Source of the DNA: Candidatus Moraniibacteriota bacterium
GTDB lineage: Bacteria > Patescibacteriota > Minisyncoccia > Moranbacterales > UBA1568
DNA length: 64,000 nt
NCBI GenBank assembly: GCA_023261695.1
Contig: JAHFON010000002.1
Coordinates: 11,467 to 75,466 of the forward strand
Direction of reading: 5' to 3'
Shown here: piece after piece, positions 1 to 9,490 of the stretch
Position numbering within the stretch: the first letter of the stretch is position 1
How the letters are laid out: every line of letters starts with the position of its first letter
The notes under the pieces: model-generated
What the model was told of the DNA's origin: nothing
The model's database searches: none
The model's input: the letters and a program-made list of their open reading frames with translations, nothing else
Program-made: the position numbers and the translations under genes

Positions 1-6
1 TATGCA

Positions 7-468
7 ATGAGAGAAAGATTAAGCATGAAGCACGGAGTGACTTATGAAAATATTGAAGCTGCTGAGATCGAGTATTCTGATTATTTCACTACTGAGTTAC
101 GAGATGAACTTTTTTTGGCTAGTCGTTTATTAGGATTTAAGGCTGATCAGGAAAATGTTAATAGATTGATTGATATTTTAAGTAGAAAGAATGGATTTAA
201 CTCATCTGAATTAAGAACAGAACTTGGACAATATCTAGGGGAAAAGACCAGCAAATTAGGTAGAAAGAAAATCGAGGCATTCATTGAAGAGTTGTGGTGG
301 TACGGCATTTTAGGATTTAAAGAAGACAAAAAACAATTGATAAATTTCCGCTATGTCGCTGGACGTACGCCATTCGTGGTTTCTAAGATTAAAAGTTATT
401 TTCTTTTTCTTCATAGAGGTCTTTGGTGGTTTTCTCAAAAAAGAAAGATAGATAGTGACAAAACATAA
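7..468 (+). CDS. hypothetical protein; no stop codon in-frame between the window edge and the first Met, so it may be N-terminally truncated
   Basis: ORF track. No recognisable motifs. The ORF in the same frame could extend upstream of position 7. Confidence 0.3.
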   Translation: MRERLSMKHGVTYENIEAAEIEYSDYFTTELRDELFLASRLLGFKADQENVNRLIDILSRKNGFNSSELRTELGQYLGEKTSKLGRKKIEAFIEELWWYGILGFKEDKKQLINFRYVAGRTPFVVSKIKSYFLFLHRGLWWFSQKRKIDSDKT

Positions 469-472
469 ATTT

Positions 473-670
473 ATGCCATTACACAAAGATTTTCCAAAAG
501 ACCCATACGTGATACTTGACCCTATATTGAGGTGGTTTCCTGCTGCGCGAAAAAGGAGTAATACAGAAACTTCTCCCAAAGTTGCTACAAAAGGCAAGCA
601 CAAAATCGCCATAAAGGTCGTGGATATTTTCGGGAACGATACGACGAGAGTAATTGAAGTAAAAATATAA
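473..670 (+). pseudogene. remnant/duplicate of the 5' end of the Type III res gene (first ~25 codons) fused to unrelated C-terminal sequence
   Basis: Codons MPLHKDFPKDPYVILDPILRWFPA are almost identical to the N-terminus of the 897-aa Res at 2286 (MALHKDFPKDPYEILDPNIRWFPA). The nucleotide stretch around 470-545 matches 2283-2360. The ORF is only about 66 aa. Confidence 0.45.
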
Positions 671-672
671 CT

Positions 673-2112
673 ATGGAACAAGAAGATTTTGAAAAATTGA
701 TCAAGGATTTAACTGCTCTTCCTGCCGAGACAGAAACTGTTGAATTTAAGGAAAATCATTTTACCGAAGGAGAGATAGGGAAAAGGATGTCGGCACTTTC
801 TAATTCAGCAAACCTACACGATCAAAAATACGGATATCTGGTCTTTGGTATTCAAGATTCAACTCATAATATCATTGGCACCCACTTTTCTATCGATAAT
901 GAAAAGATAGGAAATGAGGCATTGGAATTCTGGTTGTCTAAGAATCTAACTCCCAAAATTGATTTTAGGGTATGTAGTAAAAGGTTTGAGGGTAAGCAGA
1001 TTGTGCTTATTATTGTTCCGCCAGCAATAAATCAACCTACTAAATTTCAGGATGTTGCTTATATAAGGGTCGGTTCAACCACTCCAAAGCTCTTGGATTA
1101 TCCTGAAAAAGAAAGAAAAATTTGGACAAACATTAATCGTAAAAGCTTCGAAAAAGGAATAGCCAAAGAAAATCTTACAGTTTCTCAAGTACTCGAATTA
1201 TTGGACTATGGAAAATACTTCTCTCTTACGAAACAGGAACTACCAACAGAAACCCAACAATTTGTGGAGAAAATGGTTCAGCATGGTTTAGTAAAAAAGA
1301 TATTTGATAATAATTATGACGTCACAAATCTAGGAGCTATCTTATTCGCAAAAGAGCTTAAGAATTTTCCTACGGTCAAAAGGAAATCCGTAAGAGTGAT
1401 TATTTACAAAGGGAATAATAGGGCCGAACGACTGAAGGAACAGGAGGGCTCTTTCGGATATGCTATCTCTTTTGAAAATCTACTCGATTATATAAATGAT
1501 AAGCTGCCACAGAACGAAGAGATTTCTAAATCTTTAAGAAAAGAAGTAAAAATGTATCCTGAAGTCGCGATTCGTGAGTTTGTTGCAAACGCGCTCATTC
1601 ACCAAGATTTGTCTATATCTGGCGCTGGTCCCATGATTGAAATATTTAAAGATCGCATTGAAATTACAAATACTGGGGAACCATTGATTGACACGGAAAG
1701 ATTTATTGATCATCCTCCAAGATCTCGCAATGAAGACATGGCCTCTTTTATGAGGCAAATTGGTGTATGCGAGGAGAGTGGAACTGGTATTGATAGAGCG
1801 CTAATAAATATGGCTTTGTATCAATTACCCGCTCCAAATTTTGAGAAGTTTGATAATTTTACGAAAATAACCCTGTATGCACACAAAGAATTAAAAGATA
1901 TGACTGCAGACGACAAAGTTCGGGCGTGTTTCCAACATTGTGTTTTGAAATATGTTGAAAATTCTAGGATGACTAACTCGACGTTAAGAGAGCGACTTGG
2001 CATAGGTGAGAAAAATTATCCAGCTGCTTCAGTGATTATCAGGGATACTATATTGAGGAGATTGATTAAGGAATCGGAGAAACCTAAGGAATATGTTCCA
2101 ATTTGGGCCTAA
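673..2112 (+). CDS. AlbA_2 (Schlafen-like, 'divergent AAA') domain protein with C-terminal HATPase_c_4 (RecG-C-terminal-like) domain; putative nucleic-acid-binding regulator/defence-associated
   Basis: The N-terminal region resembles AlbA_2. The C-terminal EFVANALIHQDLSISGAGPMIEIFKDRIEITNTGEP resembles the HATPase_c_4 family. About 480 aa is typical for this architecture. Confidence 0.6.
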   Translation: MEQEDFEKLIKDLTALPAETETVEFKENHFTEGEIGKRMSALSNSANLHDQKYGYLVFGIQDSTHNIIGTHFSIDNEKIGNEALEFWLSKNLTPKIDFRVCSKRFEGKQIVLIIVPPAINQPTKFQDVAYIRVGSTTPKLLDYPEKERKIWTNINRKSFEKGIAKENLTVSQVLELLDYGKYFSLTKQELPTETQQFVEKMVQHGLVKKIFDNNYDVTNLGAILFAKELKNFPTVKRKSVRVIIYKGNNRAERLKEQEGSFGYAISFENLLDYINDKLPQNEEISKSLRKEVKMYPEVAIREFVANALIHQDLSISGAGPMIEIFKDRIEITNTGEPLIDTERFIDHPPRSRNEDMASFMRQIGVCEESGTGIDRALINMALYQLPAPNFEKFDNFTKITLYAHKELKDMTADDKVRACFQHCVLKYVENSRMTNSTLRERLGIGEKNYPAASVIIRDTILRRLIKESEKPKEYVPIWA

Positions 2113-2285
2113 ATCATGTAGTAATTAAATGACGTATTTCTCTAAAACAGCAAAAAATCCTTTATTTAAGCGGTTAATTAATGTAGCGGGTATGTAGTAA
2201 AATTATGATACTTTATTTACTAATGACGAAAGTAAATAACCATGCCAGCCGCTCGCTATAAGCATTTTTAGACACTTTATTTACT

Positions 2286-4979
2286 ATGGCATTACACAAA
2301 GATTTTCCCAAGGACCCATACGAAATACTTGACCCGAACATTCGGTGGTTTCCTGCTGACGAAGATTTGCGGGAAAAAGGGGCTATACAAAAACTCCTCC
2401 CTCCTCTTGTGGCTGGTTTGCGGGAAAAAGTGAAAGAATGGCGAGACAAAAACTACGAGGGAGCAAGCGATACTTCTAAATCACTTCTAAATTGGTGGTT
2501 TAAAGAGGAACATATTTTGTATGACCAGCACGGAACATCTTCTCATTTCAGATATTATTTTGCGCAAAGAGAAGCTCTGGAAACAGTCGTTTGGCTCTAT
2601 GAAGTTGCAAAAGTAAAGGACAAATATGATCTCATTCGTTACAACACGACTGGCGTGCTAAGCCCGCAAATGTTTACCGAGGAATGGCTTCGCTTTGTAA
2701 TAAAGATGGCGACAGGCGCAGGCAAGACTAAGGTGATGAGCTTAATAATCGCATGGGCGTATTTTCATAAAAAATATGAGGAAGATTCTAATTTGGCAAA
2801 GAATTTTCTTTTGATAACTCCGAATGTCATTGTTTTTGAAAGAATCAAAAATGACTTTGAGGGGTTAAAAATCTTTTTTAGCGATCCTGTTTTGCCGGAC
2901 AATGGGTATCGCGGACAAAACTGGCAGGATGATTTTCAAATGACTTTGCATTTGCAGGATGATTTGCGCAATGTCTCCGACACAGGAAATATATTTTTGA
3001 CCAATATCCACAGAGTTTTTGAGGGTGATGTACGAGACGCGAGCGCGGAAGATGAGGACACTTCGCGATATTTCTTGGGCGATAAGCCAGTTACGAAAAC
3101 AAGCGATTCTACTGTTGATCTCGGTATGATTGTGAGAGACATTGATGAATTGATTGTTATCAACGATGAAGCTCATCACTTGCACGATGACAAATCGGCT
3201 TGGGTTAAATCTATCACAGACATAGACAATAGATTGAAACAGAAAGGAACTGGACTATCTTTGCAAATTGATCTAACCGCTACTCCAAAAAAGAATGACG
3301 GCTCTATTTTTGTGCAGACAATTTCTGATTATCCGCTTGTTGAAGCAATACATCAGAGAGTTGTAAAAAATCCAGTTGTGCCAGACGCGGCGAGCCGGGG
3401 GAAACTGAAAGAAAATCAGAGCACTCTATTTAGCGAAAAATACAGGGATTATATAAATCTTGGCATTGAGGAATGGCAGAAAACATACGATGTACTGAAG
3501 CCGATGGGTAAAAAATCCATTCTTTTCATAATGACGGACGATACAAAAAACTGCGATGAAGTAGCGGAATATATTGAAACAAGTTTTAAAAATCTGAAAG
3601 GCGCGGTTTTGACCATTCACACGAATAAAAGCGGAGAAATTTCTGAAAACGTGTCTGGTAAAAGCAAAGAAGAATTGGATTTGCTTAGAAAACAAGCAAA
3701 CGAAATTGATAGTTGGGAAAGCCCGTTTAAGGTGATCATTTCTGTGATGATGCTCAAGGAGGGTTGGGATGTAAAAAATGTAACAACGATTGTGGGATTG
3801 CGTCCTTATGCCGCCGATTCAAAAATTCTTCCCGAACAAACTCTTGGACGAGGGCTCCGCAGAATGTTTTTTGGTAGAGATGATGTTGAAGAATATGTGA
3901 GTGTCGTTGGAACTTCCGCTTTTATGGACTTTGTTGAGTCAATCAAGGGAGAGGGCGTTATTCTTGAGAAAAAAGCGATGGGAACAGGGGCTAAACCGAT
4001 TGCTCCGATGGTTATTGAAGTTGATAAGGATAATCCGAAAAAGGACATTGAGAAACTTGATATTGAGATTCCGGTGATGTCCCCAAGGATTCAAAGAGAA
4101 TATAAAAATCTTGCAGAATTGGATGTTTCTAAATTTGGAAATAAAAAAGTTAAGGTAAAAACTTTCTCCGAGGAGGAAAAGAGAGAAATTGTTTTTAAGG
4201 ATGTCGTTGATGAAAAAACTCACCACACAACAATACTTTCGGGCGATATTGAGCCCGATTATCAAAGTGTTGTCGGCTTTTTTGCGCAAGCAATAATGCG
4301 GGAACTGCGACTGTTCGGTTGCTATGACATTTTGTTCGGCAAAGTAAGAGAATTTGTGCAGAGTAATATGTTTGATAGCAGAGTGGACTTGTCAGACCTC
4401 AATATTTTAAGAAACTTGTCGGAAGTTGAGTATATTCGGCTTATAAAAGATTCTTTCAAGAAAGCCATTAATGATCTTACGGTCGAAGATAAAGGAGATA
4501 CAGAGATAAAAAATTATATAAAAATAAGCGAAGCGCGTCCTTTTGTCGTCAATGATAAGTCGTACTTGATACCTAAAAAATCTGTTTTCAATAAGATTGT
4601 AGGAGATAGTGATTTTGAGTTGGTATTTTCTGACTTTCTTGAGAATTGTGAGGATGTAATTTCTTTTGCAAAAAACTTTCAAAATAAGGAAGCGGGTGCG
4701 CTTAGAATTGAATATAAAAATTCAGAGGGATTTATAGCTACCTATCACCCAGACTTTTTTGTTAAGAAAGATGAAAAAACCGTTTACATTATCGAGACAA
4801 AGGGGCGCGAAGAAGATGACGATAAATTAAAATTTGAAAGACTGCAAAAGTGGTGTGAGGACGTGAACGATCGACAAAGCAGAGTCATCTACAAAGCCCT
4901 ATATATAAAACAGGAAGAATGGGAGAAGGACAAGCTCAAAAACTTTGATGAAGTTATCAGAGTATTTAGCAAAAAATAA
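2286..4979 (+). CDS. res: Type III restriction endonuclease Res subunit (SF2 DEAH helicase + C-terminal PD-(D/E)xK nuclease)
   Basis: Walker A-like AGKT and the DEAH box VINDEAHHL are present. A C-terminal PD...E.K motif (HPDFFV...YIIETKG) is present. The N-terminal LDPNIRWFP-type leader is typical of ResIII proteins. Length 897 aa. Confidence 0.7.
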   Translation: MALHKDFPKDPYEILDPNIRWFPADEDLREKGAIQKLLPPLVAGLREKVKEWRDKNYEGASDTSKSLLNWWFKEEHILYDQHGTSSHFRYYFAQREALETVVWLYEVAKVKDKYDLIRYNTTGVLSPQMFTEEWLRFVIKMATGAGKTKVMSLIIAWAYFHKKYEEDSNLAKNFLLITPNVIVFERIKNDFEGLKIFFSDPVLPDNGYRGQNWQDDFQMTLHLQDDLRNVSDTGNIFLTNIHRVFEGDVRDASAEDEDTSRYFLGDKPVTKTSDSTVDLGMIVRDIDELIVINDEAHHLHDDKSAWVKSITDIDNRLKQKGTGLSLQIDLTATPKKNDGSIFVQTISDYPLVEAIHQRVVKNPVVPDAASRGKLKENQSTLFSEKYRDYINLGIEEWQKTYDVLKPMGKKSILFIMTDDTKNCDEVAEYIETSFKNLKGAVLTIHTNKSGEISENVSGKSKEELDLLRKQANEIDSWESPFKVIISVMMLKEGWDVKNVTTIVGLRPYAADSKILPEQTLGRGLRRMFFGRDDVEEYVSVVGTSAFMDFVESIKGEGVILEKKAMGTGAKPIAPMVIEVDKDNPKKDIEKLDIEIPVMSPRIQREYKNLAELDVSKFGNKKVKVKTFSEEEKREIVFKDVVDEKTHHTTILSGDIEPDYQSVVGFFAQAIMRELRLFGCYDILFGKVREFVQSNMFDSRVDLSDLNILRNLSEVEYIRLIKDSFKKAINDLTVEDKGDTEIKNYIKISEARPFVVNDKSYLIPKKSVFNKIVGDSDFELVFSDFLENCEDVISFAKNFQNKEAGALRIEYKNSEGFIATYHPDFFVKKDEKTVYIIETKGREEDDDKLKFERLQKWCEDVNDRQSRVIYKALYIKQEEWEKDKLKNFDEVIRVFSKK

Positions 4980-5267: not shown

Positions 5268-5579
5268 ATGCAACAAAATATTATCACTTTGAAAGACGCC
5301 GTGGAATATCAAAAAGGCGCGGTGGTCAGCAAAGAAATCCTAAAAACGTCCAATGGCACGGTCACTATTTTTGCTTTTGATGAGGGGCAGGGATTAAGCG
5401 AACACACGGCGCCGTTTAGCGTGCTGGTTCAGATTTTGGACGGCCAAGCGCAAATCAATATTGAAAAAACGCCGCATATTGTGGCAGATGGTCAGATGAT
5501 TGAATTGCCTGCCAATAAAACGCATTCCCTTCAGGCGTTGGAGAGGTTTAAGATGCTTTTGATAATGTTAAAGAAGTAA
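5268..5579 (+). CDS. cupin domain protein
   Basis: A 103-aa small beta-barrel-like sequence with His residues in the cupin_2 pattern (GLSEHTAP...HSLQA). Confidence 0.5.
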   Translation: MQQNIITLKDAVEYQKGAVVSKEILKTSNGTVTIFAFDEGQGLSEHTAPFSVLVQILDGQAQINIEKTPHIVADGQMIELPANKTHSLQALERFKMLLIMLKK

Positions 5580-5594
5580 AGCGGTAAAAAATAT

Positions 5595-6776
5595 ATGATT
5601 TCAGAAGTTATTATTTCTGTCATCGCGGTGGTTTTGGCGTTAGGCGTAACAATTTTTTTGTTAAAAGGCGTTGTTTCGCGGTATTTGCAAGTATTTTTGC
5701 AAAAGATGCTGGAGGAAAACTTCAGTATTGCCGAACAAAGGAACAAAGAGCTTTTTCGGGAGGAGCGGGAGAGACTGTCCGAGCAATACCGCTCGGAAAA
5801 AGAGTTGCTTCAGGAAAAATTGAAAGCAGGCGAACAATATATTGAACACAAAAAAGACAGCATCAAAGAACTGGTGGAAAAAATTCATAATGAACTGTCG
5901 GAAAGCCAAAAGAAACTGGAGCATACGGAGAAAGAGAGAATCGGGGAATTCAGCACGCTGAAAGCGGTTTTGAACGAATACAAAATTATCACCGGCGGTT
6001 TGAAAGAATCCACCGACCACCTCAAAAACATCTTGTCCAATAATCAATTGCGCGGAAAGTATGGCGAAGAAGTGGCGGAAAATTTGCTCAAATCAGTAGG
6101 TTTTGTGAAAGGGCAAAATTATGTGGCGAACGAAAGCCAAGATTCTGTCGCTTCCCGTCCGGACTTCACCATTTTTCTGCCGGACGGCACCAAGGTGAAC
6201 GTGGACGCGAAATTTCCTTTGCAGGCCTTGATCAAATATCAGGAGAGCGAAGACAAACAGGAAAAGGAGAGATATTTGCGGGAGTTTACTGCCGATGTCA
6301 AACAAAAAATCAAACAAGTGACTACGCGGGACTACATAAATCCGGAAGAGAAGACCGTGGACTTTGTGATCTTGTTCGTGCCGAACGAAATGATTTTCAG
6401 TTTTATTTATGATCGCTTGAACGAAGTGTGGGATGAAGCGATGAAAAAGAAAGTGATTATGGCGGGGCCGTTTAGTTTTACGGCGATGCTCCGAATGATA
6501 TTTCAGTCGTATAAAAACTTTAAGTATCAGGAAAATCTGTATGATATTATCAAGTTGATTAAAATTTTTGAGCAGGAGTACGAAAAGTTTAACGCGGCGC
6601 TGGATATTCTCGGGACGAGAATGCAGTCGGCGGCCAACCAGTATCAGGTGGTTTCCGTTACCAGAACCAAAAAGTTGTCAGGCGTAGTGGAAAAAATCAA
6701 AGGGGAAAATGTTTTGTTTGAAAATCCGGAGGCCGGTCCCGCGATTGAAGCTCCGGAATTAGCTGAAGAAAAGTAA
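5595..6776 (+). CDS. rmuC: DNA recombination protein RmuC
   Basis: N-terminal TM segment, long coiled-coil, then the conserved RmuC core (GKYGEEVAENLL...RPDFTIFLPDGTKVNVDAKFPLQA). Confidence 0.8.
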   Translation: MISEVIISVIAVVLALGVTIFLLKGVVSRYLQVFLQKMLEENFSIAEQRNKELFREERERLSEQYRSEKELLQEKLKAGEQYIEHKKDSIKELVEKIHNELSESQKKLEHTEKERIGEFSTLKAVLNEYKIITGGLKESTDHLKNILSNNQLRGKYGEEVAENLLKSVGFVKGQNYVANESQDSVASRPDFTIFLPDGTKVNVDAKFPLQALIKYQESEDKQEKERYLREFTADVKQKIKQVTTRDYINPEEKTVDFVILFVPNEMIFSFIYDRLNEVWDEAMKKKVIMAGPFSFTAMLRMIFQSYKNFKYQENLYDIIKLIKIFEQEYEKFNAALDILGTRMQSAANQYQVVSVTRTKKLSGVVEKIKGENVLFENPEAGPAIEAPELAEEK

Positions 6777-7966: not shown

Positions 7967-9490
7967 TTACTCCACCCAATGTCTTTTTTTAATTTTATCA
8001 TTTTCCGCCACTTTTTTTTCTTGGATTTTTTCTCTGGCTAGCTCGCGCAAAGTTTGCAAGTCGCTTTCCTGAAGAATTTGAGCGCGTTTTAATAATATCT
8101 CTTTCGTGTTTAATTCAGGATTCTCAATAACTTCCGCGAGCAATACTTCCACGATCGCGCCGATCTTGGGTCCGGCCGGAATGCGAAGCTCATTCATCAG
8201 ATCGTGCCCATTGACGGCGAGCATTTTGGCGGAAATCGGATCGTGAGAAACCTTCTCAATCATATATTCCAAATGACGCAGTTTGTAGGGTTTGGCTTTG
8301 GGCACGCCGGAACCCAGTCTATCACCAATGCGCACCGCCATCAAATCCTGCATATTTTCCAGTCCGACGCGTTTGATGAGACGGCGCACGGAAGCCTCGG
8401 TCACTTCGCCGACATTGTAATAAAAAAGATGGTTGTCCACGAGAAGCGCGGATTTTCTGATGATTTCTTTGGGAAAGCGCAAACGCGTGAGCATCTGCTC
8501 CGTAAGGCGCGCGCCGATATGATCGTGGCTGTAAAAAGTGGAATAATATCCTTCGCCGCGTTTGGCGCGGGGCTTGCCGACATCGTGAAGCAAAGCGGCC
8601 AATCTTGTTTCCAGTTTGGGCGACGGGCAAGTGGCGAGCGCGCGCAAATTATGTTCCCAGACCGTATAGATATGATGCAAATTTTGGGTTACGCCGATAC
8701 CTTCTCTCAATTCTGGAAGTACAAAGCGAAGCAAGCCGGTTTTCTCCAGCATAGCAATGCCTTCGCTCGGGCTGTCGGAGAGAATAATTTTAGAAAGTTC
8801 GTCGCGGATGCGTTCGGGAGAGACTGCCTTTAGATGTTCGGAAAGTTTGCTTATGGCCACTTCGGTGTTTTCTTCGATGCGCCACTGGTGCGCCAGTTTG
8901 GTTTTTTTTGTCTCGCTTGTAACTGTAGGCGGGGTGCGATCGCGCAACTTAGCGAAGAGGCGCACGGCGCGCATCAGACGCAGAGCGTCCTCGTTGAAAC
9001 GTTCCTCCGGCTCACCCACCGTGCGAATAATTTTTTTTTGCAAATCCTTCGCTCCGTCGTAAGGATCAATCACTTCCCATTTCTCGTCTGCGGTTGGACC
9101 ATACGCTATGGCGTTGATGGTAAAATCGCGGCGCGCCAGATCCTCCTTTAGAGAAAGCGTGAAATTGACTTCGCTGGGACGGCGTTTGTCTTTATATTGC
9201 CCTTCCGTGCGGTAAGTGGTAACTTCCACGATGTCATATTCATAGTCAGGCATCGTTTCCAGAAAGCGCGGCACTTTGACGCCGACGGTGCCGAACGTAT
9301 TTTCATAGAAACTTTCCGGAAAAATTTTCAGAACCTGATCCGGCGTGGCGTTGGTGGTGATGTCCCAATCTTTGGGCGCGTGTTCCAAAAGGAGATCGCG
9401 TACGCACCCGCCCACCACAAACGCCTCAAAACCGGCCTTTCGCAAGGCCTGAATAACATTCAAAATTGGTTCTGGAATTTTTCTTATCAT
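7967..9490 (-). CDS. cca: CCA-adding tRNA nucleotidyltransferase with HD domain
   Basis: GGCVRD head motif of the poly(A) polymerase/CCA family. HD motif (LHDVGK). 507 aa. Confidence 0.85.
   Translation of the reverse strand: MIRKIPEPILNVIQALRKAGFEAFVVGGCVRDLLLEHAPKDWDITTNATPDQVLKIFPESFYENTFGTVGVKVPRFLETMPDYEYDIVEVTTYRTEGQYKDKRRPSEVNFTLSLKEDLARRDFTINAIAYGPTADEKWEVIDPYDGAKDLQKKIIRTVGEPEERFNEDALRLMRAVRLFAKLRDRTPPTVTSETKKTKLAHQWRIEENTEVAISKLSEHLKAVSPERIRDELSKIILSDSPSEGIAMLEKTGLLRFVLPELREGIGVTQNLHHIYTVWEHNLRALATCPSPKLETRLAALLHDVGKPRAKRGEGYYSTFYSHDHIGARLTEQMLTRLRFPKEIIRKSALLVDNHLFYYNVGEVTEASVRRLIKRVGLENMQDLMAVRIGDRLGSGVPKAKPYKLRHLEYMIEKVSHDPISAKMLAVNGHDLMNELRIPAGPKIGAIVEVLLAEVIENPELNTKEILLKRAQILQESDLQTLRELAREKIQEKKVAENDKIKKRHWVE

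What the first reader, a model, noticed from the sequence alone, without database searches (positions are those of the whole stretch)
455..2360. The 5' end of the Type III res gene is duplicated 1.8 kb upstream, bracketing an inserted AlbA_2/HATPase_c_4 gene
About 75 nt around 470-545, including an ATG and codons for MPLHKDFPKDPYVILDPILRWFPA, are a near-copy of 2283-2360, the start of the intact 897-aa Res. The upstream copy runs on for about 45 unrelated codons and stops (a 66-71 aa remnant). The 479-aa AlbA_2/Schlafen-like gene lies exactly between the two copies. Just upstream of the intact res start (2195-2280) sits a 9-bp hairpin (tttatttact..agtaaataa) and a 13-nt direct repeat (actttatttacta, present twice). 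This looks like the footprint of a cassette insertion or recombination at the res 5' end, not of a classical transposon. It may define a hotspot where defence cargo is swapped.
Basis: seen in the sequence. Interest (0 to 1): 0.6.

Follow-up and report, generated by a model that had tools for sequence, protein, structure and literature searches.

The report
Recombination scar in a restriction operon
The duplicated start of the restriction gene is real: it is the scar left when two related restriction-modification operons, each carrying a different extra defence gene between its two core genes, were joined, and related genomes show that this position is a busy slot for swapping defence genes.

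Summary
The repeat is confirmed: window 472-545 matches 2285-2358 over 74 nt at 85% identity.

- After an 11-nt deletion, the res homology continues to about 577.
- The supposedly "unrelated" tail (570-670) is a copy of the last 100 nt of the mod gene.
- The intact mod lies just upstream of the window.

The locus reads: mod – Sll1717-type ATPase – [res 5' fused to mod 3'] – AlbA_2 gene – res. The two fragments are joined at an 8-nt microhomology. Their order, res before mod, is the reverse of the native mod-res junction.

Differences between each remnant and its intact copy are mostly synonymous (18 synonymous versus 9 non-synonymous codons). The mod fragment's peptide matches other lineages (32/33 residues) better than the resident Mod (29/33). 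So two diverged operons were fused; this is not a local duplication.

Both parent layouts exist elsewhere: mod–Sll1717–res and mod–AlbA_2–res.

Among 75 related loci:
- 30 have mod and res abutting.
- 45 carry inserts of 80-2284 nt (74 gap ORFs in 53 clusters, many defence-type).

Similar res-start scars occur in three other loci that hold more than one inserted gene. The hotspot idea is supported. No transposon or integron features were found.

The parts
1..468 (+). 3' part of cargo gene 1: a 503-aa Sll1717-family P-loop ATPase. It starts upstream of the window and its start overlaps the mod stop codon by 4 nt.
   Evidence: The source contig L001 shows mod (707 aa), then this gene, then the remnant. 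NCBIfam NF047389 scores 160.9 bits against a cutoff of 75. The same gene is the only cargo between mod and res in L083 and L085.
473..577 (+). res' remnant: res nt 1-113 with an 11-nt deletion after position 544. It is the start of the res gene that originally followed the Sll1717 gene.
   Evidence: nhmmer res-5' profile positions 1-113, E=5e-20. 85% identity over 72 nt and 79% over the next 33 nt to the intact copy. The upstream context ATAAATTTATG matches the Sll1717-to-res junction of L083.
569..576 (+). Junction microhomology ACTTCTCC. These bases could come from either the res or the mod parent sequence.
   Evidence: The res profile match ends at 577 and the mod profile match begins at 570. 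Also read directly.
570..670 (+). 'mod remnant: the last 100 nt of a type III mod gene, including its stop codon (668-670). It supplies the native upstream context for the AlbA_2 start.
   Evidence: nhmmer mod-3' profile positions 50-149, E=6.7e-23. The peptide TSPKVATKGKHKIAIKVVDIFGNDTTRVIEVKI is 32/33 identical to L003 Mod, 31/33 to L005 Mod and 29/33 to the resident Mod.
473..670 (+). Fused 65-codon ORF. It runs from the res ATG to the mod stop. The 11-nt deletion puts the mod part in frame. It lies 4 nt after the Sll1717 stop and 2 nt before the AlbA_2 ATG.
   Evidence: A gene caller called it as a 65-aa gene in L002. It has no Pfam hit and is absent from all related loci.
673..2112 (+). 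Cargo gene 2: a 479-aa AlbA_2 (Schlafen-like) + HATPase_c_4 protein.
   Evidence: Pfam PF04326 at 1.2e-19 and PF13749 at 2.5e-19. An 83%-identical orthologue is the sole cargo between mod and res in L005. The same family is cargo in the window locus and in L005, L016, L020, L059, L061 and L078; L010 has a truncated HATPase_c_4-like ORF upstream of res.
2113..2205 (+). Spacer homologous to the AlbA_2-to-res spacer of L005. In L005 this spacer runs straight into the res ATG.
   Evidence: Alignment.
2206..2285 (+). ~80-nt conserved element directly upstream of res. It has an inverted repeat (2213-2222 / 2232-2240), a TATAAGCA box (2255-2262) and a third TTTATTTAC half-site just before the ATG. 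The direct repeat is at 2207-2222 and 2271-2286.
   Evidence: nhmmer hits in the same position in L020, L059 and L010 (E=1e-12 to 1e-20) and weakly in L081; alignment. The spacer as a whole is not unusually stable as RNA (z=-0.41).
2286..4979 (+). Intact res gene (897 aa): type III restriction subunit. Walker A ATGAGKT, DEAH box and a C-terminal PD...ETK motif are all present.
   Evidence: Pfam ResIII 3.7e-17. PADLOC REase_III 3.7e-23. 68-96% aa identity to 80 loci. Motifs were read from the translation.

Best explanation
**What the feature is**
The feature is an evolutionary scar. It is not a working element in its own right. Two related type III restriction-modification operons were joined into one:
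- one laid out as mod–Sll1717 ATPase–res;
- the other as mod–AlbA_2–res.

The join runs from about nt 110 of the first res to 100 nt before the end of the second mod, across an 8-nt microhomology (ACTTCTCC). Most of res-1 and mod-2 are missing. The result is mod1 – Sll1717 – res'::'mod – AlbA_2 – res2: one intact Mod, one intact Res and two stacked cargo genes.

**How the join could have formed (inferred, not resolved)**
1. Incoming DNA anchored by homologous recombination in one flanking gene. Its other end was joined illegitimately at the microhomology. This is homology-facilitated illegitimate recombination.
2. Two complete systems first lay in tandem. A microhomology-mediated deletion of about 4.6 kb then removed the middle.

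**Later change**
An 11-nt deletion in the remnant put the mod-derived part back in frame. The small ORF now ends at the native mod stop, 2 nt before the AlbA_2 ATG. This may preserve translational coupling into AlbA_2. That is an inference; a random indel would restore the frame one time in three.

**The wider picture**
The 1-nt mod/res junction of this Patescibacteria-wide type III family is a slot. Diverse accessory defence genes are embedded there, in the same orientation and tightly packed. They turn over quickly relative to Res divergence.
For: **Shown by tool results**
- Anatomy and boundaries of the scar.
- The intact mod and the Sll1717 gene lie upstream on the source contig.
- The fragment order is res 5' then mod 3'. 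This is the reverse of the native mod-stop/res-ATG junction, so it cannot be a copy of that junction.
- Copy-versus-remnant differences are 18 synonymous against 9 non-synonymous codons. Random-mutation simulations give a mean synonymous fraction of 0.18, and 0 of 20000 runs reach the observed 0.67. This includes the res piece that is now out of frame.
- The mod remnant's peptide carries the ATKGKH variant typical of the L003/L005/L083 clade. It is 32/33 identical to L003 Mod but 29/33 to the resident Mod.
- Both parental layouts exist: L005 is mod–AlbA_2–res with 83% aa identity; L083 and L085 are mod–Sll1717–res.
- The Sll1717-to-res' junction matches that of L083.
- Slot statistics: 30 of 75 loci are empty and 45 of 75 are filled. 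The filled gaps, window locus included, hold 75 ORFs of at least 50 aa (74 without the scar ORF) in 54 clusters. Of these ORFs, 68 are on the + strand. In 16 of 41 loci the spacers on both sides are 10 nt or less.
- Seven loci with Res at least 93% identical to the window's (window locus included) show five different cargo states.
- Defence-type cargo.
- Independent res-start scars, all beginning at the ATG:
  - L017: nt 1-76 directly after the mod stop, and nt 1-36 further in.
  - L016: nt 1-75, degenerate.
  - L086: nt 1-43.
  - Sources.
- A 263-nt patch that is 10% diverged in res, between two otherwise identical contigs, points to ongoing allele recombination.
- Mod is a mosaic with a hypervariable target-recognition domain (TRD).
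Against: - No sampled locus is a close parent. The best nucleotide identities to the remnants are 86-88%, so the two donors are inferred from layout and clade-typical variants, not identified.
- The remnant res 5' is about as similar to the resident intact res (85%) as to the best other loci (86%). Its provenance alone does not discriminate between models.
- Three of its four amino-acid changes (P2, I18, L19) look like drift after inactivation.
- Which block was resident and which was incoming is undetermined. So is the choice between one-step illegitimate integration and tandem-plus-deletion.
- Translational coupling and co-transcription are inferred from spacing only.
- Only the best 80 of 482 confirmed genome matches were examined.
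Confidence: 0.85

Rival explanations
1. Local tandem duplication of the mod/res junction region during insertion of AlbA_2, followed by neutral decay of the upstream copy. On this view the repeat is a long target duplication.
For: The remnant res 5' is about as close to the resident res (85% and 77% over its two pieces) as to any other sampled locus. Three of its amino-acid changes look like drift.
Against: - The fragment order (res 5' then mod 3') is the reverse of the native junction.
- The differences are two-thirds synonymous, even in the piece that is now out of frame.
- The mod remnant's peptide matches other lineages (32/33) better than the resident Mod (29/33).
- Both single-cargo parent layouts exist.
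Confidence: 0.05
2. Insertion by a mobile element (IS, transposon or integron-type cassette) that targets the res 5' end and generates the repeat.
For: Res-start scars recur in four loci, and all breakpoints lie within the first ~113 nt of res. This could hint at a preferred target.
Against: - The source contig shows no transposase, integrase or recombinase around the locus.
- No terminal inverted repeats bracket the cargo.
- The breakpoints differ (nt 36, 43, 75, 76 and ~110).
- The repeats are long and diverged.
- More than 40 cargo-bearing loci have no scar at all.
- An attC-specific search was not run.
Confidence: 0.04
3. The two direct repeats are a working switch. Recombination between them pops AlbA_2 out, or back in, to vary the defence repertoire within a population.
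For: The repeats are direct and in frame, so a crossover would rebuild an intact res and delete AlbA_2 (read). A recombination patch in res shows that alleles do recombine.
Against: - The longest exact shared stretch is 19 nt and overall identity is 85%, which is poor substrate for RecA.
- Both independent assemblies carry the full arrangement.
- No deletion-variant contig was found among the metagenome hits.
- Reads could not be examined.
Confidence: 0.05
4. Assembly artefact: two strains with different cargo were merged at the repeat.
For: The contigs come from short-read MEGAHIT assemblies. L001 ends inside res, close to a polymorphic patch.
Against: - The identical arrangement appears in assemblies of two different samples.
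- The repeats share no exact stretch near the k-mer size of 141.
- The res'::'mod junction is a novel sequence that a strain merger would not create.
Confidence: 0.01

Closest known systems
PrrC anticodon nuclease embedded in the EcoprrI type Ic restriction-modification locus; also BrxU/GmrSD embedded in BREX
   Same: An accessory defence gene sits inside the operon of a restriction system and travels with it (review PMC12707154; bioRxiv 10.1101/2023.04.06.535777).
   Different: - Here the host is a type III system and the position is the 1-nt mod/res junction.
- The slot holds more than 50 unrelated gene families across relatives, not one dedicated partner.
- No functional link between the cargo and the RM complex has been shown.
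Defence-gene hotspots flanked by conserved genes (defence islands; P2/P4 satellite hotspots)
   Same: Conserved flanks, highly variable defence cargo, and fast turnover relative to the divergence of the flanks. The comparison with published hotspots rests on my own knowledge; the turnover data are.
   Different: - The flanks are the two subunit genes of a single enzyme.
- The cargo is co-oriented and often seamlessly packed (spacers of 10 nt or less on both sides in 16 of 41 loci).
- No integrase or mobile-element backbone is present.
Homology-facilitated illegitimate recombination in naturally transformable bacteria (de Vries and Wackernagel 2002; cited from memory)
   Same: One side of the new segment lies in strongly homologous sequence. 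The other is a junction at a short microhomology (8 nt here), close to the edge of the homology.
   Different: - The process was not observed, only its possible product.
- A tandem arrangement followed by deletion gives the same product.
- Transformation in these organisms is assumed, not shown.
Allelic shuffling of the mod target-recognition domain in Haemophilus and Neisseria type III systems (PMC1557822)
   Same: Mod is conserved outside a hypervariable central region, res is conserved, and alleles are mosaic.
   Different: That work concerns exchange within mod. The variable module described here is a gene slot between mod and res.

Membership tests
Type III restriction-modification system | Mod subunit: beta-class N6-adenine/N4-cytosine methyltransferase, with motif IV (DPPY/F) ahead of motif I (FxGxG) | tested here: met
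   Pfam N6_N4_Mtase on the source contig. PADLOC MTase_III at E=3.9e-113. DPPF and FFCGSGTT were read in that order from the translation.
Type III restriction-modification system | Res subunit: SF2 helicase/ATPase motifs plus a C-terminal PD-(D/E)xK nuclease | tested here: met
   Pfam ResIII 3.7e-17. RE_endonuc is only weak (0.0013, below its cutoff). PADLOC REase_III 3.7e-23. ATGAGKT, DEAH and PD...ETK were read.
Type III restriction-modification system | mod upstream of res in one operon | tested here: met
   The order is mod then res on the same strand in 77 loci. They abut (0-6 nt apart) in 30 of the 75 related loci. In this locus they are separated by 3325 nt of cargo.
Type III restriction-modification system | ATP-dependent cleavage that needs Mod for site recognition, with hemimethylation protecting the host | not testable with these tools
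   Biochemical property.
AlbA_2 (Schlafen-like) / HATPase_c_4 proteins | N-terminal AlbA_2 domain and a central HATPase_c_4 domain, both above the Pfam gathering scores | tested here: met
   71.5 bits (cutoff 25.3) and 69.5 bits (cutoff 26).
Sll1717-family P-loop ATPase | Full-length match above the NCBIfam cutoff | tested here: met
   NF047389: 160.9 bits against a cutoff of 75, covering residues 9-490. The Walker A motif GRKGSGKT was read.
Transposon or IS insertion | Transposase gene, terminal inverted repeats and a short identical target-site duplication | tested here: not met
   The source contig has no transposase. No inverted repeats bracket the cargo. The repeats are 74-113 nt long and 15% diverged.
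Integron-type gene cassette | attC site at the cassette boundary and a nearby integrase | tested here: inconclusive
   No integrase lies within 10 kb upstream or in the gene list, and the breakpoints vary. No attC-specific model was run.
Homology-facilitated illegitimate recombination product | One homologous flank plus one junction at a short microhomology | tested here: met
   An 8-nt overlap between the res and mod profile matches (570-577). The flanking mod and res are homologous to other alleles. This is a necessary feature but not a sufficient one.
Homology-facilitated illegitimate recombination product | Arises from uptake of linear foreign DNA | not testable with these tools
   Historical process. 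Tandem-plus-deletion gives the same product.
RM-guardian (PrrC-like) abortive-infection module | Effector activity released when the partner RM complex is inhibited | not testable with these tools
   Only the embedding and the defence-type domains were shown.

The most novel reading that the evidence does not exclude
The mod/res junction of this Patescibacteria-wide type III family may be a dedicated capture-and-expression slot. On this reading the embedded genes are abortive-infection effectors functionally wired to the Mod-Res complex, acting as PrrC-like guardians that fire when a phage blocks restriction. Examples are the Schlafen-like AlbA_2 gene, OLD/AriA-like ATPases, SoFic, PIN, NYN and DUF3800. 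The res-start scars would then mark a mechanistically favoured capture route: an anchor in res and a microhomology join within the first ~110 nt. The slot would also be a guilt-by-embedding source of new defence genes, since roughly half of the cargo proteins scanned have no Pfam match.
Probability: 0.25. Interest if true: 0.75.

Novelty: new variant of a known kind. Interest (0 to 1): 0.55.

Why it matters
**Mechanism.** The scar records at base-pair resolution how two defence modules became stacked inside one restriction operon. That is rare direct evidence for how defence loci grow.

**A place to look for new defence genes.**
- A highly conserved type III system, spread across many Patescibacteria classes, carries a hypervariable gene slot between its two subunit genes.
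- The slot is filled in about 60% of the loci examined, with more than 50 unrelated gene clusters.
- Many are recognisable defence proteins and many have no annotation.
- This group of bacteria cannot easily be cultured, so such a positional handle is useful.

**An open question it makes testable.** Type I systems have the PrrC precedent for embedded guardian genes. Whether type III systems also recruit such guardians can now be tested on this family.

Tried and rejected
1. **Pfam on the 71-aa ORF.** No hit. Its nature only became clear once the source contig was found.
2. **Nearest-neighbour provenance of the remnants at nucleotide level.** The best identities are 86-88% and do not separate resident from foreign. 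One search also had an off-by-one error in the res coordinates, corrected.
3. **Stable RNA structure in the AlbA_2-res spacer.** The z-score is -0.41, which is not significant.
4. **Promoter and terminator consensus scan.**
   - 15 promoter-like sites found against 15 expected.
   - None of the 7 terminator-like sites (3.6 expected) lies in the AlbA_2-res spacer.
   - One minus-strand site falls inside the scar at 593-610.
5. **"Homology arm" test for extra synonymous-site conservation next to the slot.**
   - Res codons 1-25 are slightly elevated: 0.55 against a mean of 0.465, rank 4 of 872.
   - The mod 3' end is not elevated (rank 519 of 688).
   - There are therefore no special arms.
6. 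**A shared breakpoint.** Codon 24-26 looked recurrent in the window, L016 and L017. The scars in L086 and the second in L017 break at nt 43 and 36, so there is no single site.
7. **Viral carriage.** Only 4 relatives were found among 2.9 million viral contigs. The family is mainly chromosomal.
8. **Literature.** Eight searches found embedded genes in type I and BREX systems. None described a mod-res cargo slot in type III systems. Absence from that library is not proof of novelty.


Full report
**1. Observation**

Window 472-545 and 2285-2358 form a 74-nt direct repeat at 85% identity (alignment). The upstream copy starts with an ATG at 473. It encodes MPLHKDFPKDPYVILDPILRWFPA, against MALHKDFPKDPYEILDPNIRWFPA at the start of the intact 897-aa Res.

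A nucleotide profile built from the res 5' ends of about 75 related loci hits window 473-577 at E=5e-20. It hits nothing else in the 64-kb window apart from the intact start at 2286. The repeat is real and far beyond chance.

**2.

- *The homology continues.* After an 11-nt deletion relative to the intact gene, the next ~33 nt are still res. In the original res frame they read REKGVIQKLLP, against REKGAIQKLLP.
- *The tail of the small ORF is a mod fragment.* I found the source contig by exact look-up of the AlbA_2 protein (L001 and L002, two ENA assemblies from different samples).
  - Upstream of the window lie a RhuM-like gene and a 707-aa type III Mod.
  - Next comes a 503-aa gene whose start overlaps the mod stop by 4 nt. 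Its last 153 codons are window 7-468.
  - The intact Mod ends ...TSPKVAIKGNYKIAIKVVDIFGNDTTQVIEVKI*.
  - The small ORF ends ...TSPKVATKGKHKIAIKVVDIFGNDTTRVIEVKI*.
  - A mod-3' profile hits window 570-669 at E=6.7e-23.
- *The junction.* The res and mod profile matches overlap at 570-577. The bases ACTTCTCC (569-576) fit both parents, giving an 8-nt microhomology.

The locus therefore reads: mod – Sll1717-family P-loop ATPase (NCBIfam NF047389, 160.9 bits against a cutoff of 75) – res'::'mod scar – AlbA_2/HATPase_c_4 gene – res.

**3. Why this is a fusion of two operons and not a local duplication**

- *Fragment order.* In the 30 related loci where mod and res abut, the mod stop is followed within 0-6 nt by the res ATG. 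The scar has res 5' followed by mod 3'. A copy of the native junction cannot produce that order. It is what remains when a res is joined to a following mod.
- *Substitution pattern.* Between the remnants and the intact copies, 18 differing codons are synonymous and 9 are not. This includes the res piece that is now out of frame. When the same number of random substitutions was simulated, the mean synonymous fraction was 0.18, and 0 of 20000 runs reached the observed 0.67. Most of the divergence therefore arose while both copies were parts of working genes.
- *Clade-typical variants.* The mod remnant's peptide carries the ATKGKH variant of the L003/L005/L083 clade. It is 32/33 identical to L003 Mod and 31/33 to L005 Mod, but 29/33 to the resident Mod. 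L003 and L005 are also among the closest relatives of the intact Res (96% and 93%).
- *Both parental layouts exist.* L005 is mod–AlbA_2–res, with AlbA_2 83% identical. L083 and L085 are mod–Sll1717–res. The sequence linking the Sll1717 stop to the remnant's ATG (ATAAATTTATG) matches the Sll1717-to-res junction of L083.

**4. Mechanism**

*Shown:* the junction sits at a microhomology, about 4.6 kb (most of one res and one mod) is missing, and the flanks are homologous.

*Inferred:* two routes give this product, and I cannot separate them.
- Incoming DNA was anchored by homologous recombination in one flanking gene and joined illegitimately at the other end.
- Two complete systems lay in tandem and a microhomology-mediated deletion followed.

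I also cannot tell which block was resident.

The later 11-nt deletion shifts the frame. The small ORF (65 codons, 473-670) now ends at the native mod stop, 2 nt before the AlbA_2 ATG. Without the deletion it would stop at 612-614. The chain is then:
- mod stop overlapping the Sll1717 start;
- Sll1717 stop, 4 nt, scar ORF;
- scar ORF stop, 2 nt, AlbA_2.

This spacing suggests translational coupling, but a random indel restores frame one time in three, so it remains conjecture. The retained 100 nt of mod is in any case the donor's native upstream context for AlbA_2, as in L005.

**5. The hotspot**

*Distribution of the family.* A scan of one genome per species confirmed 482 relatives of Res. 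The best 80 (68-96% aa identity) were fetched with flanks. They come from many Patescibacteria classes, plus a few MAGs with other labels.

*Filled and empty slots.* Of 75 loci other than the window's that hold both genes, 30 have mod and res abutting. The other 45 have 80-2284 nt between them. The window locus has the largest gap, 3325 nt.

*Nature of the inserts.*
- The gap ORFs of at least 50 aa, window locus included, number 75 in 54 clusters. One of these is the scar ORF.
- 68 of the 75 are on the + strand.
- In 28 of 41 loci the first cargo gene starts within 10 nt of the mod stop. In 17 of these it overlaps the stop.
- In 21 of 41 loci the last cargo gene ends within 10 nt of the res ATG. 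In 16 of 41 both hold.

*Recognisable cargo*:
- AlbA_2/HATPase_c_4, in 7 loci including the window's;
- OLD/AriA/GajA-like ATPases;
- SoFic (E=5e-104);
- PIN, NYN and ClpP/SDH proteases;
- DUF3800 (PADLOC PDC-M04A);
- DUF4145/HEPN-like and Bro-N.

About half of the cargo proteins scanned have no Pfam match.

*Turnover.* Seven loci whose Res is at least 93% identical to the window's, the window locus included, show five different cargo states. An insert is also present at 61% Res identity.

*Other signs of recombination.*
- Mod is 85-100% conserved outside a hypervariable target-recognition domain (TRD), as described for Haemophilus mod (PMC1557822).
- Two otherwise identical contigs differ by 26 substitutions clustered in 263 nt of res.

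**6. Other scars**

Profile searches of all the gaps found res-start remnants in three more loci.
- L017: nt 1-76 directly after the mod stop, then a small gene, then nt 1-36, then a DUF3800 gene, then res.
- L016: nt 1-75, degenerate and carrying a stop codon, between a 111-aa ORF and an AlbA_2-family gene.
- L086: nt 1-43, between an apparently NYN-like gene (judged from its sequence, not scanned) and a DUF3800-like gene, downstream of an Sll1717 gene.

Every scar begins at the ATG and breaks within the first ~113 nt. The breakpoints differ, so there is no single target site. More than 40 cargo-bearing loci have no scar. This fits clean exchange by homologous recombination in both flanks, or loss of old scars.

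No transposase, integrase or bracketing inverted repeats were seen.

**7. The hairpin and the 13-nt repeat**

Both are present. The AlbA_2-res spacer is itself a mosaic.
- Window 2113-2205 aligns with the L005 spacer, which in L005 runs straight into the res ATG.
- Window 2206-2285 is an ~80-nt element found in the same place in L020, L059 and L010, and weakly in L081.
  - It contains the inverted repeat TTATTTACY-N9-RGTAAATAA.
  - It contains a conserved TATAAGCA box.
  - It has a third TTTATTTAC half-site just before the ATG.
  - It shows one compensatory change in the stem.

The spacer is not unusually stable as RNA (z=-0.41). An internal promoter or operator for res is my best guess; I did not test it.

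**8. Comparison with known systems**

- Mod and Res meet the sequence-level criteria for a type III system. Their activity cannot be tested here.
- Genes embedded in restriction loci are known for type I (PrrC in EcoprrI) and for BREX (BrxU).
- Defence hotspots between conserved genes are also known.
- Eight literature searches found no description of a cargo slot at the mod/res junction of type III systems. That library is incomplete.

I therefore rate this as a new variant of a known kind. The scar itself is an ordinary, though unusually legible, product of recombination.

**9. Verdict**

Interest is moderate (0.55). The value lies in the base-level record of cargo stacking and in the family-wide slot. 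The slot could be mined for new defence genes and used to test whether type III systems recruit guardian effectors.

Noticed in passing
window 3592-3854 (inside res): Contig L001 is identical to the window over 3933 nt except for 26 substitutions clustered in this 263-nt stretch (~10% divergence). This looks like a gene-conversion tract from another res allele, or a strain-mixed assembly. L001 also ends inside res.
   Followed up: partly
window 2206-2285; L020 7917-8003; L059 7916-8003; L010 1032-1110; L081 7927-7999: An ~80-nt conserved element lies directly upstream of the res ATG. It has an inverted repeat TTATTTACY-N9-RGTAAATAA, a TATAAGCA box and a third half-site at -13 to -4. In four of the five loci it follows an AlbA_2/HATPase_c_4-type gene. 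It may be an internal promoter or operator for res.
   Followed up: partly
window 2116-2124, 2179-2185, 2191-2199 and 968-982: The motif ATGTAG(T/C) occurs three times in the AlbA_2-res spacer and is conserved in L005. An exact 15-mer, GGGTATGTAGTAAAA, is shared between the spacer (2188-2202) and the inside of the AlbA_2 gene (968-982).
   Followed up: no
L003-L082 (res and mod genes): Res is about 85% conserved at the amino-acid level across many Patescibacteria classes, yet third-codon-position identity is only 0.465. The divergence is therefore old and under strong purifying selection, not recent spread. Some carriers are MAGs labelled Gammaproteobacteria, Bdellovibrionales, Chitinophagaceae, Nitrospirae, Campylobacterales, Omnitrophica or Atribacterota. 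This could be horizontal transfer or binning contamination.
   Followed up: no
L001 4168-6155 (upstream of the window): A small defence islet precedes mod: a 90-aa GIY-YIG protein, a 300-aa Fic protein and a 152-aa RhuM-like protein (PADLOC PDC-S05/S23, E~1e-50). It sits next to dnaG and rpoD.
   Followed up: no
L008 5522-7374; L033 728-2343; L024 6009-6436; L052 7310-8001: Some mod-res gaps hold no convincing + strand ORF. They contain only short ORFs, some on the minus strand. These may be decayed cargo or non-coding inserts.
   Followed up: no
window 5268-6776 and 7967-9490: Downstream of res lie ordinary chromosomal genes: a small cupin-domain protein, RmuC (Pfam E=5e-62) and, by the look of its sequence (not scanned), a CCA-adding tRNA nucleotidyltransferase-like gene on the minus strand. 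The locus is therefore chromosomal.
   Followed up: no
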